Notes: generated from the letters alone by a model not told the origin. DNA of 24,000 nt from Methanocaldococcus sp. 16A (GCA_049860595.1 CP187551.1); one strand, 5' to 3'; positions 3,447 through 23,147 are shown, counted from the first letter of the stretch. Made by a program: numbers and translations.

Positions 3447-3658
3447 ATCACGACATTCAAAATATTCAAGACATCTAAATTTGAGTACTGACAGTGTGAT
3501 TTAACGATATCGAACATAAAACCAAAAAATAGAAATAGATGAAACTTAAATTAAAGTTTATTACGAATAAAAAGAATTGAAGTGGGCATTTAATGGGTAA
3601 AGCTATGAGAGAAATCCCTGAGGAGGATTATAAGTTGATTGTAGGTGAATAAGAAATA

Positions 3659-6505
3659 TTAATTACCCTCATCAGTATAATAATTAGATTTTATGAAGTT
3701 TTGAATGAATTGTTTTAAATCTTTTAGTTTTTCATTTACTAAGTCTTCTGAAGCATTTATAGCGATTATATAAGCAATTTCTGTCTTATTATCTATATTT
3801 TTTGGTATATCTACTTCTTTACTAAATTCTTTATTTAGAAAATCAGTCCAATCATAATCAGGACATGCATAAATATAATATTCGTCTCGCAATTTTTCAG
3901 CAATTTTATCATAAACAGGTTTTATACATTTCTCCACAATTTCATCTCTATTTTTAATTGTGTTTGGTAGTTTAAGACTTTCTTTAATTTTATTAATGTA
4001 TTCATCATTTAACCAATCTGGTGAATAGAGTTCCTTAAGATTTTTAAGTATTATTGGCATACTTATTTTGTTCTTATCTTTACTACTATTTTCGTTCGTA
4101 TAAAAATTAAATGCCGTGTCTCCATCACAAACAATACAATATGGAATGTTTAAAGAATCCATTAGTTTCATATATTTTTTAAATCCATTCTTGCCGCCGA
4201 CATTTATAATTTCTATGTTATATTTTTCGAGTGGATTGTTGTATTTTTCATCTTCAAATTTAAATTTTCTTATTAATATTGGAAGAGTTATCAACTCTGA
4301 AATTCCTTCTACCAATATTACACCATTTGCAAAAAGTGAGGGAATTAATCTATCATTTTCTTCAAACATTTTTTTCATCATGTTTATATTTGTGCTTGTG
4401 GTGATGTATGAAATATCATCATTTTTTTTAATTTTAGGAATTTTTGAATATATTTCTTCTAAAATCTCATTAAGATTAATTTTGTAGATTCCATTACAAA
4501 AATTATCAATATATTCCTGACATTTTTTTATTAAGTCATCATATTTTCCATCTTTATTAGATACCTTCTTTAAATAACCTATCTTACCATTTAATTCATT
4601 GAATTTTATAAACTGTTTTTCTAAAAATTCAAGTTCATTTAAATCTAATTCGTCTAAATTAATGTTTATTTTTCTACCTAAACGACTTTCAAAGTTTGAT
4701 AAATCCTTTTCTAATTTTTGCTTAATATCCTCTTTAATAAATTCAAAGAATACTCTATATATATTTACTAACTTTGTAGCTCCATTTTCTTTATCTTTAT
4801 AAAATCTAAAAGTATGTTTTAATAATTCAGAATCTACAAAATAGGGTGAGTGGGTTATTATTATAATTTGGTTACCCCCATTTTCATTTAAATTTAACTT
4901 TTTAAAATCTTCCAATAATCTTTTCTGATAAATTGGATGTAAATGTAGTGCTGGCTCATCTAATAAAATAACTTTATTTTTATTTCCAACGACTACAGCC
5001 AAAATATTTAAAACTTCAAAAATACCTGAACCTACTCTATCAATAGGTAGTTGCTTAGAATCTTTTGATTGAATATCATATGTAATAAAAATTTCTGGAT
5101 AGCCATTATGATTAACTACATCGAAATCTATGTTTTCAGTAGCAAAAATTTCTTGAAAATATTTTCTAATATCTTTATATTTGTTTCTAATATCTAATTC
5201 ATGGGAATTTTTTAAATAAAACAAATATTTTGCCAAATCTTTTCCATTCCCATAATAGGCATTAAATCCATACCCATAAGTAGGTATTTTTCGTATAGCC
5301 TCTGTTACTTTACTTAACTTATCTACAGATACCTTAATATCTGATGTTGGAGGAATCCACAACTTTAATCCTTTTATTAATGATTTAACATCTTCAGAAA
5401 GGTCTTTAGGATATCCCCTAACTTCTTCAAATTTTATAATTGCTTTATCAAAGAGTTTTAGTATAAAATAATGAAATAATAACGAATTAGGAAATTTAAA
5501 TTCTATATTTAGATATTCAAAGATTCTTTTTATTTTCTCATATATCTCACTGTCTAACGGATTTTCATTTACATAATTTGTAATTTTCTCATAATTTATG
5601 TAACTATTCTGTCCTAAGTAAAATAAGCCCAATGCTAATAATAATGCATATAGTAATCTAAAATGCTTTATTGTTTGATATTTTTCTTCTAAAAATCTGT
5701 ATCCATTATCACTATCAATAAATTCACGCAAATAATCACATAAAATATCTTTATTTTGACCATTATTGAAATCGGAAATAAACAATATATTGTTGGTTTT
5801 ATCCACAATATAATACAAATTATAACTCATTACTACGTTTAAAAACTTATTTAAACTCTTAAAATATTTTCCATCATTATTTTCAAATTCTTTATACTTC
5901 TGAGGATTAGGTTTCTTAGATAATATCTCATTAAATGTTTTTTTATTAACTAAAAATTCATACCATTTCATATCATCCTCAATATCAGATAGTGATAGTC
6001 CCCACTTAGATAACTCATTTTTTAATTCTTTAGATATTTCAATTAACTTATTAATAGAAACTTTGTAATATGGATGTATTATACCTGTAGGATTTCCGTG
6101 ATATTCCCAAATTATCTGCCCTTTTGAGAATACATCTATTAATTCATCAAAAACATTAAAATTTAATTTATTGCAGATTTCTAAGAATGTTTCTATGGAA
6201 TTAGAACCTGTAGATTTAAAAAATCCTTCAAAATAATCTTTTAGTAAATTTTTCTCCAAATCATCAAATTCAATATCTACAACAATTTTAGCAAATCTAT
6301 TACTATCATTATGTAAATAATTTGGGACATCTTCGGCTTTTATTCTATTATTTATCACATCCTTTAAAAACTCAAGAACTCTAAATAGATTTGATTTTCC
6401 AGCATTATTTGGACCTACTATAACAGCAATATTGCCCTCATTAAATTCAATCTTAAATTCATCATAAGAAAATAAGTTATTAACTTCAATAGCCTTAATC
6501 TTCAT
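3659..6505 (-). CDS. OLD-family nuclease: ABC/SMC-like ATPase fused to a C-terminal Toprim domain, unusually long at 948 aa
   Basis: Walker A GPNNAGKS (nt 6392-6415), signature-like RVGSGIFE, Walker B/D-loop VILLDEPALHLHP (around nt 4934-4972), H-motif IIIITHSPYF. Toprim motifs VILVEGISE (nt 4295-4318), INVGGKNGF and CIVCDGD (around nt 4118-4126). GGTGA Shine-Dalgarno 6 nt upstream of ATG 6505. Confidence 0.85.
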   Translation of the reverse strand: MKIKAIEVNNLFSYDEFKIEFNEGNIAVIVGPNNAGKSNLFRVLEFLKDVINNRIKAEDVPNYLHNDSNRFAKIVVDIEFDDLEKNLLKDYFEGFFKSTGSNSIETFLEICNKLNFNVFDELIDVFSKGQIIWEYHGNPTGIIHPYYKVSINKLIEISKELKNELSKWGLSLSDIEDDMKWYEFLVNKKTFNEILSKKPNPQKYKEFENNDGKYFKSLNKFLNVVMSYNLYYIVDKTNNILFISDFNNGQNKDILCDYLREFIDSDNGYRFLEEKYQTIKHFRLLYALLLALGLFYLGQNSYINYEKITNYVNENPLDSEIYEKIKRIFEYLNIEFKFPNSLLFHYFILKLFDKAIIKFEEVRGYPKDLSEDVKSLIKGLKLWIPPTSDIKVSVDKLSKVTEAIRKIPTYGYGFNAYYGNGKDLAKYLFYLKNSHELDIRNKYKDIRKYFQEIFATENIDFDVVNHNGYPEIFITYDIQSKDSKQLPIDRVGSGIFEVLNILAVVVGNKNKVILLDEPALHLHPIYQKRLLEDFKKLNLNENGGNQIIIITHSPYFVDSELLKHTFRFYKDKENGATKLVNIYRVFFEFIKEDIKQKLEKDLSNFESRLGRKININLDELDLNELEFLEKQFIKFNELNGKIGYLKKVSNKDGKYDDLIKKCQEYIDNFCNGIYKINLNEILEEIYSKIPKIKKNDDISYITTSTNINMMKKMFEENDRLIPSLFANGVILVEGISELITLPILIRKFKFEDEKYNNPLEKYNIEIINVGGKNGFKKYMKLMDSLNIPYCIVCDGDTAFNFYTNENSSKDKNKISMPIILKNLKELYSPDWLNDEYINKIKESLKLPNTIKNRDEIVEKCIKPVYDKIAEKLRDEYYIYACPDYDWTDFLNKEFSKEVDIPKNIDNKTEIAYIIAINASEDLVNEKLKDLKQFIQNFIKSNYYTDEGN

Positions 6506-6702
6506 AAAAATTCACCATATTTTTTAGGTTATTGCATTTTCCTTAATATTACAATTTTGAACTGTTGATTAATTATATTGCTTTTTAAAAATATTTAAAA
6601 ATAATCCTACACATAACTAAAAAATAAAACAATTATATATTATCTAAACTACCACATTTTCATAATAAGTTATTAACTCTTTAATAAGATGAAGTGATTC
6701 AA

Positions 6703-7488
6703 ATGTTATTAGAAAAGAGCAAAATAGAAATTATAGAGCAATTTATTCATATCTTAGAAATCTTAGACATGTATGCAAAAGAAGGAAGTGATGAGAAGGC
6801 AATTATAAGATTGATGTTAGATTACCTTGAAAAAGGACATGTTTTAGATGAAGATATTATTCCAATAGCAAGTAAAATTTCGGAAATAGCTAAAAAAGTT
6901 GGTAGTTTTGACATGAAAAGAGAGATAAACCTTTTACTATTTGGAGAGAAAGTAAGATTAACAAAATCCCAAAAAAACAAAATAAAAAAGATTATTGAAA
7001 TTTTAGAGTATTTAAAAGGTTATATAGAGAAAAAGCCATACAAATCTTATGAAGACAGGCATATTTTAAATCTAATTGGTTTAAAAATTTTAAGGCTGGA
7101 TGAAGGAATTGTTTTAGATTATAATTCAGAAGTTAGGAGCTTAACCAATATGGCTTTAAGAGTGGGAAGTTATGAATTAAAAAATGAAATTGAGTTATTA
7201 TTAACTGGAAGAAGAAGGAGGAAATTAACAGAAGAATTTATACAAAAGAGAATATCAATTATAGAGATTTTAGAAATGGTTAAAGACTTTATAGACAAAA
7301 AAGAATTTAAATCATCTTTTGACTATGAAGCACTCTTCTTAATAAATTTGAAGATTCATAGAATTGAAGAAGGAATTTTAAAAAATTTTGATGAAGAAGT
7401 AGAATCAATTTTAAGCATAGCAAGAAAAGTAGGAAATCACAAATTGAGGGAGAAAATTGTTTTATTAAAAGAGAGTATAAAGAACTAA
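6703..7488 (+). CDS. Hypothetical protein made of three tandem ~85-aa repeats
   Basis: Internal triplication. The repeat cores are IIEQFIHILEILD...KVGSFDMKREINLLL, then IIEILEYLKGYIE...RVGSYELKNEIELLL, then IIEILEMVKDFID...KVGNHKLREKIVLLK. The ORF opens at GTG 6694. ATG 6703 follows GAAGTGA. Divergent from the OLD-family gene. Confidence 0.7.
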   Translation: MLLEKSKIEIIEQFIHILEILDMYAKEGSDEKAIIRLMLDYLEKGHVLDEDIIPIASKISEIAKKVGSFDMKREINLLLFGEKVRLTKSQKNKIKKIIEILEYLKGYIEKKPYKSYEDRHILNLIGLKILRLDEGIVLDYNSEVRSLTNMALRVGSYELKNEIELLLTGRRRRKLTEEFIQKRISIIEILEMVKDFIDKKEFKSSFDYEALFLINLKIHRIEEGILKNFDEEVESILSIARKVGNHKLREKIVLLKESIKN

Positions 7489-22452: not shown

Positions 22453-23147
22453 GAGACTGTCAAGATAAAGATTAAATAAATATGTGTAAATAAAGGAAGA
22501 TATGAAACTTACGATAGAAATGTTAAAGGAAGGGATTAAGAAGATAGTTAAAAGGAATAAGAAGTCGATAGAGATTAAAATTTTAGCTGGAATTTTGTAT
22601 TATTTAGGATTATCGTTAAGAAAGGTTAGTTTGTTTCTTTCTCAATTTGAAAGTATAAGTCATGAATCGGTTAGAACATATTATCACAAGATTAAGGAGA
22701 TTTTAAACGAGCCTGAAAGAAAGACAAGAAACCTAATAGCAATCGATGAAACTAAACTAAAGATTGGAAATGAAACTATTTATGTATGGTCTGCTATCGA
22801 TGTGGGTTCTAAAGAATGTTTAGGTATCTATGTCTCTAAAACAAGATGCTACCTCGATACAATCTTATTCGTAAAAAATATATTAAAATTTTGCTCGAAT
22901 AAACCAAAGATTTTAGTCGATGGTGGCAAATGGTATCCGTGGGCACTGCAAAGATTAGGACTAAAATTCGAAAGAGTTCGATTCGGTTTAAGAAATTGTG
23001 TCGAAAGTTTCTTTTCCCTACTCAAACGAAGAACTAAATCTTTCTATAATCGATTCCCAAGTAATACTAAATTCTCAACCGTCATTAGCTGGCTCGTATC
23101 TTTCTCCTCTTTCTATAACTTCTTTCTCTCCTTATCTTGACATCGTC
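22453..23147 (+). mobile_element. IS6-family insertion sequence (~695 bp) with terminal inverted repeats and a 9-bp target-site duplication
   Basis: IRL is GAGACTGTCAAGATAAAG (22453-22470). The reverse complement of IRR (23130-23147) is GACGATGTCAAGATAAGG. They match at 14 of 18 positions, with a perfect TGTCAAGATAA core. An identical TTTATTTTA lies immediately outside both ends (22444-22452 and 23148-23156). One transposase ORF ends inside IRR. Confidence 0.8.
22502..23140 (+). CDS. tnp: IS6-family DDE transposase
   Basis: An N-terminal HTH-like region is followed by the DDE triad contexts [19 protein letters not shown] and [13 protein letters not shown]. 212 aa, matching the size and layout of IS6/IS26-type transposases. 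Confidence 0.85.

What the first reader, a model, noticed from the sequence alone, without database searches (positions are those of the whole stretch)
3659..6505. Outsized stand-alone OLD-family ATPase-Toprim nuclease: candidate archaeal anti-virus or anti-plasmid effector of unusual architecture
All catalytic motifs of an OLD (overcoming lysogenization defect) nuclease are visible. The ATPase part shows Walker A GPNNAGKS, Walker B/D-loop LLDEPALHLHP and H-motif ITHSPYF. The Toprim part shows VEGISE, GGKNGF and CDGD. This architecture is shared with P2 Old and Gabija GajA, and OLD-like ATPase and Toprim modules also occur in PARIS-type and some retron-associated systems. The protein is atypical in four ways. 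It is 948 aa, well above the roughly 550-650 aa I recall for characterised members. About 475 aa of helical, N/K/Y-rich sequence are inserted between Walker A and Walker B. A second K/E/N-rich linker of about 190 aa separates the ATPase from the Toprim domain. About 170 aa follow the DxD motif. No UvrD-like helicase (GajB), reverse transcriptase or separate Toprim partner lies anywhere nearby. The gene is intact, has a good Shine-Dalgarno motif, and looks more AT-rich than its housekeeping neighbours.
Basis: partly seen in the sequence, partly recalled or inferred. Interest (0 to 1): 0.75.

Follow-up and report, generated by a model that had tools for sequence, protein, structure and literature searches.

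The report
Oversized archaeal OLD nuclease, recently inserted
The gene encodes a real but unusually long ATP-driven DNA-cutting enzyme of the known OLD family. It was inserted into this Methanocaldococcus strain's chromosome as a mobile accessory gene, and it is most likely a single-gene defence against viruses or plasmids, not a new kind of system.

Summary
The ORF at 3659-6505 (minus strand, 948 aa) is real and every quoted motif is present. Pfam, PADLOC, PDB profile search and an AlphaFold2/Foldseek comparison all place it in the OLD family. The closest class is the single-gene Class 1 (Thermus scotoductus OLD, P2 Old). It is the NCBI protein "AAA family ATPase [Methanocaldococcus sp. 16A]".

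It belongs to a tiny, Methanococcales-restricted clade of about 12-15 proteins among billions searched. The catalytic cores of this clade are conserved (57-69% identity) and several inserted regions are hypervariable (9-19%).

Two related Methanocaldococcus genomes have an empty site, so window 3447-6673 is a strain-specific 3.2-kb insertion. It carries the gene, its conserved promoter and a dead 3' stub of an EVE-domain gene (3557-3643). An intact EVE gene lies tail-to-tail with several relatives. Relatives sit in differing, often defence-rich contexts.

The real excess over Ts OLD is about +240, +115 and +55 aa. Low GC is not evidence of foreign origin.

Verdict: a divergent variant of a known kind and a plausible stand-alone defence nuclease. 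The function is untested.

The parts
3659..6505 (-). OLD-family gene, 948 aa plus stop. It is identical to NCBI XRP96515.1 'AAA family ATPase [Methanocaldococcus sp. 16A]'.
   Evidence: ORF. Pfam and PADLOC matches. 100% match to P0001.
6056..6505 (-). ABC-ATPase N-terminal lobe, aa 1-150, including Walker A GPNNAGKS (aa 31-38, nt 6392-6415).
   Evidence: aa 4-77 align to Ts OLD 3-75. pLDDT is 73-95. Identity across the clade is 69% for aa 1-80.
5246..6055 (-). Expanded, hypervariable, mostly helical insertion in the ATPase, aa ~151-420. It occupies the region where Ts OLD carries its four-helix dimerization domain, and it is about 240 aa longer than in Ts OLD.
   Evidence: Length comparison. 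Clade identity is 12-15% with many gaps, except for a conserved FILKLFDxAIIKFEEVRGYP block at aa 343-366. aa 60-480 alone finds only 12 proteins among 1.84e9 representatives. pLDDT is mixed, 37-92.
4763..5245 (-). ABC-ATPase C-terminal lobe, aa 421-581. It holds the signature-like GSG (aa 492-494), Walker B VILLDE (512-517), the D-loop PALHLHP and the H-loop THSP (551-554).
   Evidence: aa 485-574 align to Ts OLD 241-332. These residues are invariant in alignments A1 and A2. Clade identity is 62%.
4370..4762 (-). Helical linker between ATPase and Toprim, aa 582-712. The model shows two 28-residue helices and three shorter ones. It is present only in P0001, P0002 and, in a different form, P0010.
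   Evidence: Alignment A1. The H-loop to Toprim Glu distance is 180-192 aa in these three and 60-68 aa in the others. DSSP and pLDDT of 77-90.
3830..4369 (-). Toprim nuclease domain, aa 713-892. It contains E733 and E737, the DxD D794/D796, a variable helical stretch (aa ~800-875), and the clade-invariant motif YAC-P-D-Y-D-W (aa 879-886) after a predicted strand.
   Evidence: PF20469 covers aa 724-796. E733/D794/D796 align with Ts E377/D431/D433. The motif lies at a variable distance of 21-142 aa after the DxD in all members.
3662..3829 (-). C-terminal helical tail, aa 893-948.
   Evidence: DSSP helices 907-942 with pLDDT 80-91. L930, F933 and F937 are invariant.
6506..6566 (-). Conserved 5' leader and putative promoter that travels with the gene. 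The Shine-Dalgarno match GGTGA lies at 6516-6512.
   Evidence: Window 6470-6566 is 88-90% identical at nucleotide level to the upstream regions of homologues in unrelated contexts (L001-L004). Sequence.
3557..3643 (+). Dead 3' remnant of an EVE-domain (PF01878) gene. Only the last ~29-33 codons remain, with an in-frame stop. It is convergent with the OLD gene.
   Evidence: tblastn gives 93% identity to aa 114-142 of the EVE proteins of L001 and L016. blastn gives 88% identity to the DNA downstream of the OLD homologues in L001, L009 and L010, and 80% in L004.
3447..6673 (.). Strain-specific inserted segment of about 3.2 kb between the class-III aminotransferase (HemL-like) gene and the conserved 264-aa repeat-protein gene.
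   Evidence: In L012 and L013 the aminotransferase stop lies 25-55 bp from the start of the 264-aa gene, with no OLD gene between them. Homology to L011, L012 and L013 breaks at window 3446 on the left and resumes at 6674-6689 on the right.

Best explanation
The gene encodes an intact single-gene (Class 1-type) OLD-family enzyme. An ABC-type ATPase is fused to a Toprim two-metal nuclease.

**Shown**
- It belongs to a very small, Methanococcales-restricted, rapidly diversifying clade.
- It reached this strain as part of a ~3.2-kb DNA segment inserted between two conserved chromosomal genes.

**Inferred mechanism**
- The protein forms a dimer or higher oligomer through the enlarged helical insertion in its ATPase. 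This is the region where Ts OLD has its dimerization domain.
- ATP binding and hydrolysis by the two ABC heads controls the Toprim active site (E733, D794, D796, E737 and probably the YAC-x-D/E-x-D-W motif).
- That site nicks or degrades DNA of an invading virus or plasmid, or the host's own DNA as abortive infection.
- The hypervariable insertions are the likely specificity or trigger-sensing surfaces.
- Here the enzyme works without a partner gene.
For: **Family membership**
- Pfam AAA_21, AAA_15 and OLD-like_TOPRIM all match.
- PADLOC Old scores 1.9e-34, ahead of all GajA models.
- The clade profile hits Ts OLD (Class 1, 6P74) at 3.6e-48. GajA scores 6e-31, AriA 5e-23 and Eco8 OLD 3e-21.
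- In the AF2 model (pLDDT 76.5, pTM 0.77), the top Foldseek PDB hits are the Eco8 OLD, Ts OLD and GajA.

**Catalytic residues**
- K37, D516/E517, H552, E733, E737 and D794 are invariant or nearly so in the clade.
- They align with Ts residues that were shown by mutation to be required (PMC7049728).

**Accessory and mobile status**
- There is an empty site in L012 and L013.
- The 90%-identity cluster contains this one protein only.
- The profile search found only 12 clade members, then a gap from E 1e-142 to 5e-27.
- Every relative sits in a different neighbourhood.

**Defence flavour of relatives' contexts**
- P0003 lies inside a DUF1156-methyltransferase/DUF499/SNF2-helicase locus, with MNT/HepT and AAA_15+DUF3226 genes nearby. 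OLD-Toprim genes are described as auxiliary effectors of such BREX-related systems (PMC12839542).
- P0010 and P0018 lie next to a type III CRISPR module.
- P0004 lies near PIN, DUF87 and MNT/HepT genes.
- P0030 lies beside homologues of M. jannaschii extrachromosomal-element genes MJECL32/33.

**Arms-race-like pattern**
- Catalytic cores are 57-69% identical and insertions 9-19%.
- L001 and L016 are the same locus, with flanks 84-90% identical at nucleotide level. Their OLD proteins share only about 22% identity overall.
- There is one split copy and there are catalytically dead relatives.

**Precedent**
- Class 1 OLD proteins can defend alone: P2 Old, and Vc OLD, a nickase (PMC12392090).
Against: - No experiment exists for this protein or for any member of its clade.
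- The only archaeal OLD protein studied (Cran1) is not antiviral (PMC12796447).
- No other defence gene lies in the 24-kb window, so the local context gives no support.
- The EVE neighbour found beside several relatives is truncated here. If OLD needs it, this copy is crippled.
- The distal metal-B ligands (Ts S478/E480) could not be mapped by sequence.
- The key insertion is modelled with low to moderate confidence (pLDDT 37-75 over much of aa 170-420). The insertion modelled on its own gave pLDDT 51. Dimerization and sensing roles are therefore inference.
- No relatives were found in viral contigs, phages or plasmids, so the vehicle of transfer is unknown.
Confidence: 0.6

Rival explanations
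1. It is an orphaned piece of a multi-gene system. In the ancestor the OLD nuclease worked with the neighbouring EVE modified-base reader, and possibly with the DUF499-type BREX-related restriction system that EVE accompanies in archaea. In this strain only the nuclease and a stub of EVE were transferred, so the gene is inactive, mis-regulated or on its way to decay.
For: - EVE, or its remnant, lies tail-to-tail with the OLD homologue in four independent contexts: L001/L016, L009/L010, L004 and the window.
- The DNA from the OLD 3' end into the EVE 3' end is 80-88% identical between these contexts, which is more conserved than the OLD genes themselves.
- Stand-alone EVE proteins recurrently accompany the COG1743-DUF499-SNF2 helicase-nuclease system in archaea (PMC7641849). 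P0003 sits inside exactly such a locus.
Against: - The OLD ORF is intact with every catalytic residue, while EVE is degraded in the window and L004 and frameshifted in L009/L010. OLD is therefore kept without EVE.
- Clade members P0005, P0010, P0030 and P0031 have no EVE neighbour.
- The two genes are convergent and do not form an operon.
- The same 90%-identity EVE cluster includes M. jannaschii MJ1382, which sits among housekeeping genes with no OLD nearby.
- Adjacency may therefore only record the donor locus.
Confidence: 0.2
2. It is a selfish or inter-element competition gene carried on a fragment of a plasmid-like extrachromosomal element. Like phage P2 old, it would serve the mobile element (exclusion of rival elements or post-segregational killing) and not the host.
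For: - P2 Old, the founding Class 1 member, is phage-borne and excludes lambda (PMC7049728, PMC10568477).
- Relative P0030 lies next to MJECL32/MJECL33 homologues.
- The EVE cluster includes MJECL36 of the M. jannaschii large extrachromosomal element.
- The gene arrived here by insertion.
Against: - No integrase, replication gene or other element gene lies in the 3.2-kb insert.
- No terminal repeats or target-site duplication were found.
- No relatives were found in IMG/VR viral contigs, the INPHARED phage collection or the PLSDB plasmid collection.
- Most relatives are on chromosomes.
Confidence: 0.12
3. It is a housekeeping genome-maintenance or cell-cycle factor, like the Sulfolobales OLD protein Cran1.
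For: Cran1 shows that an archaeal OLD-family ATPase-nickase can be essential and cell-cycle linked (PMC12796447). The window is otherwise entirely housekeeping.
Against: - The gene is absent from the same site in two close relatives.
- It is unique at 90% identity.
- Only about 12-15 relatives exist, in scattered contexts.
- One copy is split.
- Cran1-type genes are vertically inherited and sit in an operon with a membrane-protein gene. Neither is true here.
Confidence: 0.04

Closest known systems
Thermus scotoductus OLD (Class 1 OLD nuclease, PDB 6P74)
   Same: It is the best solved relative by sequence profile (3.6e-48) and among the top Foldseek hits. It has the same order of parts: ABC ATPase, helical insertion within the ATPase, Toprim. 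Walker A/B, the H-loop and the metal-A triad (E377/D431/D433 = E733/D794/D796) align, as does the first metal-B ligand position (D381 = E737). It is a single gene with no fixed partner.
   Different: Ts OLD is 528 aa against 948 aa here. The excess is about 242 aa in the ATPase insertion, about 114 aa between ATPase and Toprim, and about 57 aa after the DxD. The spacing from the DxD to the next conserved strand motif is 85 aa, against 45 aa to S478 in Ts OLD. The host here is archaeal and hyperthermophilic, and the clade is restricted to Methanococcales.
Phage P2 Old, represented by the PADLOC 'Old' model PDLC02358
   Same: It is the best PADLOC model (1.9e-34, 117 bits, three matched stretches). 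It is a single-gene system carried on mobile DNA.
   Different: The profile has 578 positions. The match covers only the conserved cores. There is no evidence here for RecBCD-type sensing, which has no obvious archaeal counterpart.
Gabija GajA (Class 2 OLD nuclease)
   Same: Many GajA models match at 1e-28 to 1e-16. GajA structures are among the Foldseek and profile hits. The gap between the DxD and the following acidic motif is similarly long.
   Different: There is no GajB/UvrD-like helicase gene anywhere in the window. The profile score is lower than for Class 1 (111 against 168 bits).
Retron-Eco8 OLD nuclease (Class 3)
   Same: It is the top Foldseek PDB hit (9lpa_B, E 4e-9). It is also a long OLD protein, 743-750 aa.
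   Different: There is no reverse transcriptase and no retron ncRNA. The profile similarity is weak (79 bits).
Giant-virus OLD-like 'ATP-dependent endonucleases' (Terrestrivirus A0A3G4ZNS6, 849 aa; Catovirus, 748-750 aa)
   Same: They are the best structural matches of all libraries searched (E 5e-16 to 4e-11). They show that OLD-like proteins of 750-850 aa exist.
   Different: Sequence identity is 13-16%. They come from eukaryotic viruses. They were not recovered in the sequence searches run from this protein.
Cran1 (Class 5 OLD ATPase-nickase of Sulfolobales)
   Same: It is the only characterised archaeal OLD protein, with the same ATPase-Toprim layout (PMC12796447).
   Different: Cran1 is vertically inherited, essential and in an operon with a membrane-protein gene. 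The present gene is a strain-specific insertion. No Methanococcales sequence appears in that paper's dataset.
Toprim-OLD auxiliary effectors of BREX-related DUF499 systems
   Same: Relative P0003 lies between the DUF1156 methyltransferase and DUF499 genes of such a system, as described in general terms in PMC12839542.
   Different: No component of such a system is present in this window.

Membership tests
OLD family (ABC ATPase + Toprim nuclease) | N-terminal ABC-type ATPase with Walker A, signature-like motif, Walker B, D-loop and H-loop | tested here: met
   AAA_21 2.3e-21, AAA_15 4.5e-18 and SMC_N/ABC_tran N-terminal matches. The motifs are invariant in the clade. They align to Ts OLD residues 3-75 and 241-332.
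OLD family (ABC ATPase + Toprim nuclease) | C-terminal OLD-type Toprim domain with a catalytic Glu and a DxD (metal A site) | tested here: met
   PF20469 2.7e-21 over its full length, 1-67 of 67. E733, D794 and D796 align with Ts E377, D431 and D433. E733 and D794 are invariant across 23 sequences.
OLD family (ABC ATPase + Toprim nuclease) | Second metal site (Ts D381, S478, E480) | tested here: inconclusive
   E737 occupies the D381 position and is invariant in the clade. Alignments to Ts OLD stop at residues 437-454. The candidate is the invariant YAC-x-[DE]-[YH]-D-W motif at aa 879-886.
OLD family (ABC ATPase + Toprim nuclease) | Overall fold similar to solved OLD proteins | tested here: met
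   The AF2 model (pLDDT 76.5) has Eco8 OLD, Ts OLD and GajA as top Foldseek hits, each with probability 1.00. TM-scores are low (0.24-0.28 on the query) because of the extra regions.
OLD family (ABC ATPase + Toprim nuclease) | ATP hydrolysis and metal-dependent DNA nicking or exonuclease activity | not testable with these tools
   Requires purified protein.
Class 1 OLD | Single gene, with no conserved partner gene immediately adjacent | tested here: met
   The neighbours are an aminotransferase gene and a conserved 264-aa gene that also occurs without OLD. Caveat: an EVE gene or its remnant lies tail-to-tail in four contexts of relatives.
Class 1 OLD | Closer in sequence to Class 1 than to Class 2-4 representatives | tested here: met
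   Ts OLD scores 168 bits. GajA scores 111, AriA 85 and Eco8 OLD 79. PADLOC Old ranks above the GajA models. A phylogeny against the published dataset was not run.
Class 1 OLD | Short form: on average about 50 aa shorter than Class 2, and lacking the extra helical element in or after the Toprim domain | tested here: not met
   The protein is 948 aa. There are 85 aa of mostly helical sequence between the DxD and the next conserved strand, against 45 aa in Ts OLD. This spacing varies from 21 to 142 aa within the clade, so it does not define a class here.
Class 2 OLD (Gabija GajA) | [quoted passage not shown] | tested here: not met
   No helicase domain occurs in any window ORF of 90 aa or more.
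Class 3 OLD (retron effector) | Adjacent reverse transcriptase and retron ncRNA | tested here: not met
   There is no RT domain and no Rfam family hit in the window.
Class 4 OLD (PARIS AriA/AriB) | ATPase and Toprim encoded as two separate proteins | tested here: not met
   Both domains lie in one 948-aa ORF.
Class 5 OLD (Cran1-like) | Vertical inheritance within one order, conserved operon with a membrane-protein gene, essential gene | tested here: not met
   There are empty sites in close relatives and variable contexts. No co-directional membrane-protein gene is present. Essentiality was not testable.

The most novel reading that the evidence does not exclude
The Methanococcales proteins form a separate, so far unclassified class of OLD enzymes. 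In this class the ATPase insertion, the ATPase-Toprim linker and the intra-Toprim insertion are swappable sensor modules. These modules are exchanged by recombination between the conserved 5' end/promoter and the conserved EVE gene 3' end: the same locus carries ~22%-identical alleles in L001 and L016. The ancestral unit would be an OLD nuclease paired with an EVE modified-base reader, acting as a back-up effector of DUF499-type BREX-related restriction in archaea.
Probability: 0.2. Interest if true: 0.65.

Novelty: new variant of a known kind. Interest (0 to 1): 0.4.

Why it matters
No archaeal OLD protein has been shown to act in defence, and the one studied (Cran1) does something else. This clade offers intact, single-gene, clearly accessory candidates from hyperthermophilic methanogens. 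Their conserved catalytic cores and hypervariable insertions form a natural experiment on which parts of an OLD enzyme determine specificity.

If the insertions prove to be sensor or oligomerisation modules, that would help explain how single-gene Class 1 OLD enzymes are triggered, which the field lists as an open question (PMC10568477). The recurrent EVE neighbour hints at a link to modified-base recognition.

On the other hand, standard domain searches identify the gene and its basic architecture is the known one, so the practical gain is modest.

Tried and rejected
- **The 264-aa divergent neighbour (6694-7488) as a partner.** Rejected. It is a conserved Methanocaldococcus gene found next to Thi4 with no OLD gene in L011-L013.
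- **Low GC as proof of foreign origin.** Rejected. Native genes have similar GC and GC3, and the value follows the N/K/Y/I-rich composition.
- **Terminal inverted repeats or a target-site duplication around the insert.** None convincing. The exact 15-mer at 6471-6485 and 6664-6678 has a chance probability of about 0.2 (my estimate).
- **tRNA or ncRNA integration target.** None.
- **Bacterial-type promoter and terminator scan.** Not different from shuffles, and not appropriate for archaea.
- **Small partner ORFs inside the insert.** None of 20 aa or more, apart from the EVE stub and an antisense ORF overlapping the end of the aminotransferase gene.
- **Relatives in mobile-element collections.** There were none in the IMG/VR viral-contig collection. 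Phages and plasmids gave only distant ATPase-core hits. The metagenome scan added only one 2-kb fragment and one distant hit.
- **Structure of the ATPase insertion alone (aa 140-465, 9-sequence alignment).** pLDDT was 51 and pTM 0.28, so it was not used for fold search.
- **Mapping the distal metal-B ligands by profile or by the shortest clade member.** Alignments end before them.
- **Checking the Methanococcales clade against the published OLD phylogeny.** The dataset holds no Methanococcales entry, and its sequences are truncated in the held text, so no tree was built.


Full report
**Observation**

The window has a 948-codon ORF at 3659-6505 on the minus strand. At this base composition about 9% of random codons are stops, so such an ORF cannot be chance. 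A GGTGA Shine-Dalgarno match lies 6 nt before the ATG. The protein is identical to the NCBI entry 'AAA family ATPase [Methanocaldococcus sp. 16A]' and is the only member of its 90%-identity cluster.

**Family assignment**

- Pfam gives AAA_21 (2.3e-21), AAA_15 (4.5e-18) and a full-length match to OLD-like_TOPRIM (2.7e-21, aa 724-796).
- In PADLOC the best model is Old (1.9e-34), followed by many GajA models. NCBIfam has no specific model.
- Against solved structures, the single sequence finds Ts OLD (6P74) and the Xanthomonas Class 2 C-terminal region.
- A profile of the clade plus distant relatives finds Ts OLD at 3.6e-48 (168 bits). GajA scores 111 bits, AriA 85 bits and the retron Eco8 OLD 79 bits.
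- E733, D794 and D796 align with Ts E377, D431 and D433, the metal-A ligands shown by mutation to be needed. E737 sits at the position of metal-B ligand D381.
- The distal metal-B ligands could not be mapped, because alignments stop before them. A strictly conserved YAC-x-[DE]-[YH]-D-W motif after a predicted strand (aa 879-886) is the obvious candidate.
- An AlphaFold2 model built on 23 sequences has mean pLDDT 76.5 and pTM 0.77. Its best PDB matches are the Eco8 OLD, Ts OLD and GajA. Its best matches among viral models are giant-virus OLD-like proteins of 748-849 aa.

**Anatomy and size**

The aligned blocks against Ts OLD show where the extra length sits:

| Region | Excess over Ts OLD |
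|---|---|
| ATPase insertion (the region of the Ts dimerization domain; PMC7049728) | about 242 aa |
| Between the ATPase and the Toprim domain | about 114 aa |
| After the DxD | about 57 aa |

That distance is already 240-326 aa in ordinary OLD proteins.
- All clade members have a long distance here (429-548 aa). Only P0001, P0002 and P0010 have the long helical ATPase-Toprim linker. The others have the usual ~60 aa.
- Between the DxD and the YAC...DW motif the spacing ranges from 21 to 142 aa. This is one more variable insertion site.
- Identity to P0001 across nine full-length relatives is 69% (aa 1-80), 62% (ATPase C-lobe) and 57% (Toprim core). In the insertions it is only 9-19%.
- The insertion region alone (aa 60-480) finds just 12 proteins among 1.84 billion representatives, all of them relatives of the same kind.
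- Modelling the insertion by itself failed (pLDDT 51), so what it forms remains uncertain. In the full model it is mostly helical with small strands. The linker contains two 28-residue helices.

**Distribution**

Two searches of 5.8 billion clustered proteins found 12 clade members. All of those with a taxonomic label come from Methanocaldococcus or Methanothermococcus. After them the E-value jumps from 1e-142 to 5e-27 for ordinary bacterial OLD proteins. The recent survey of OLD diversity, which defines five classes and clades U1-U11, contains no Methanococcales sequence.

**The gene is a recent insertion**

- The divergent neighbour (6694-7488, a 264-aa protein with three internal repeats and no Pfam family) is a conserved Methanocaldococcus gene.
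- In two related genomes (L012, L013; flanking proteins 90-96% identical) the aminotransferase stop codon lies 25-55 bp from its start, with no OLD gene between them.
- Homology to these genomes ends at window 3446 and resumes at 6674-6689. Window 3447-6673 is therefore strain-specific.
- In strain 28A the right flank is 96% identical from 6674 onward, but the left flank is a different set of housekeeping genes. The same junction has been broken more than once.
- No repeats, integrase or tRNA mark the insert.
- Low GC does not help. The gene has 24.1% GC, native neighbours have 25.6-26.3%, and GC3 is within the host range.

**What travelled with the gene**

- About 60 nt upstream of the ATG are 88-90% identical to the upstream regions of homologues in unrelated contexts.
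- About 95 nt downstream of the stop are 80-88% identical to DNA downstream of the homologues in L001, L004, L009 and L010.
- The downstream block is the 3' end of an EVE-domain gene. Window 3557-3643 translates to the last ~29 residues of the EVE protein of L001/L016 (93% identity), with an in-frame stop just before them.
- An intact 144-aa EVE gene lies tail-to-tail with the OLD gene in L001 and L016/L017. A frameshifted copy lies in L009/L010, and fragments lie in L004.
- This EVE protein belongs to a 90%-identity cluster that includes M. jannaschii MJ1382 and MJECL36, the latter on the large extrachromosomal element. MJ1382 has no OLD neighbour.
- EVE is therefore not an obligate partner, and here it is dead.

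**Contexts of relatives**

- P0003 lies between a DUF1156 methyltransferase and DUF499, with an SNF2 helicase, MNT/HepT and AAA_15+DUF3226 genes around it. This matches the archaeal EVE-associated restriction system of PMC7641849 and the 'BREX-related' systems, in which OLD-Toprim genes are described as auxiliary effectors (PMC12839542).
- P0010 and the split copy P0018 lie beside a type III CRISPR module. Each is followed by a double-ABC ATPase gene.
- P0004 lies near PIN, DUF87 and MNT/HepT genes.
- P0030 lies next to MJECL32/33 homologues.
- P0005 and P0031 lie among housekeeping genes.
- L001 and L016 are the same locus. The EVE and helicase genes are 90% identical at nucleotide level, and the promoter plus the first ~170 nt are 84-86% identical. 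The OLD proteins, however, share only ~22% identity overall. This looks like allelic replacement between conserved flanks.
- Catalytically dead relatives exist: P0026 in M. vulcanius and P0029, with DAP for DEP, no Toprim Glu and no DxD.

**Interpretation**

The protein is a member of the OLD family, and by gene organisation and profile similarity it is closest to Class 1. It fails the 'short form' trait of that class.

The patchy distribution, the insertion, the defence-rich neighbourhoods of relatives, the pseudogenised copies and the conserved-core/hypervariable-insertion pattern together make a role in conflict with viruses or plasmids the best reading (confidence about 0.6). Several points are inference by analogy with Ts OLD, P2 Old and Vc OLD (PMC7049728, PMC12392090). 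These are the mechanism (an ATP-gated two-metal nuclease), the oligomerisation through the enlarged insertion, and the role of the variable regions as specificity surfaces.

The main rival is that it is an orphaned part of an OLD-EVE (plus restriction system) unit (about 0.2). A mobile-element-serving role (about 0.12) and a Cran1-like housekeeping role (about 0.04) are less likely.

**Novelty and score**

The kind is known and standard profiles find it. The clade, its size and its modular variability are not described in the literature I could search. OLD-like proteins of 743-849 aa are already known from retrons and giant viruses. I rate it a new variant of a known kind, with interest 0.4.

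Noticed in passing
window 3557-3643 (+): Dead 3' stub of an EVE-domain gene, about 29-33 codons with an in-frame stop. It is 93% identical to the C-terminus of the EVE protein that lies tail-to-tail with OLD homologues elsewhere. That EVE protein clusters at 90% identity or more with M. jannaschii MJ1382 and the extrachromosomal-element gene MJECL36.
   Followed up: yes
L001 7678-13583 vs L016 883-6008: This is the same locus in two metagenomic genomes. The EVE and SF2-helicase flanks are 90% identical at nucleotide level, and the promoter plus the first ~170 nt of the OLD gene are 84-86% identical. The OLD bodies (P0002 against P0007) are only ~22% identical overall. This looks like allelic or cassette replacement of a defence gene between conserved flanks.
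   Followed up: partly
window 6694-7488 (+): A 264-aa protein made of three ~85-aa internal repeats, with no Pfam family. It is conserved next to Thi4 in several Methanocaldococcus genomes (64-99% identity). Its function is unknown.
   Followed up: partly
L011 1-10000 (Methanocaldococcus sp. 28A) vs window 6674: In strain 28A the 264-aa gene, Thi4 and the radical-SAM gene are kept (97-99% identity). The left flank, however, is a different set of housekeeping genes (ATP-cone/AAA_18, DUF2100, LOR/SDH). The breakpoint is the same one that bounds the OLD insertion, which suggests a recombination hotspot just upstream of the 264-aa gene.
   Followed up: partly
L027 7001-9367 (M. vulcanius CP001787; P0026) and P0029: These are relatives of 757-788 aa that keep the clade's ATPase insertion but have lost the catalytic residues: DAP instead of DEP, no Toprim Glu and no DxD. 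P0026 lies between ilvC and an amidohydrolase gene. They may be exapted or decaying copies.
   Followed up: partly
L018 6815-9176 (Methanocaldococcus sp. FS406-22) and L005 8001-12969 (M. bathoardescens): The OLD homologue is split into 351- and 391-aa ORFs in FS406-22 but is intact (1091 aa) at the same locus in M. bathoardescens. Both lie next to a type III CRISPR module. Both are followed, with an overlap or a 26-nt gap, by a 555-563-aa protein with two ABC_tran domains (97% identical between the two genomes). This could be a partner in that sub-lineage.
   Followed up: partly
L028 5719-8448: OLD relative P0030 (743 aa, all catalytic motifs intact) lies beside genes assigned to the Pfam families MJECL32 and MJECL33, which are named after genes of the M. 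jannaschii large extrachromosomal element. This hints at plasmid-like carriage.
   Followed up: no
window 6471-6485 and 6664-6678: An exact 15-nt direct repeat, AATAAGTTATTAACT. One copy lies inside the OLD 5' coding region and the other lies at the right-hand junction of the insertion. It could be microhomology used in the insertion, or chance (estimated p about 0.2).
   Followed up: partly
window 22502-23140 (+): A 212-aa ORF with a DDE transposase domain (DDE_Tnp_IS240, 1.7e-09). It is the only other mobile-element signature in the window and lies 16 kb from the OLD gene.
   Followed up: no
L009 10356-10783 and L010 5778-6205: The EVE gene next to P0004 reads in two frames (aa 1-119, then 118-143) across an A-rich KKK run. 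This is either a real frameshift or an assembly error at a homopolymer.
   Followed up: no
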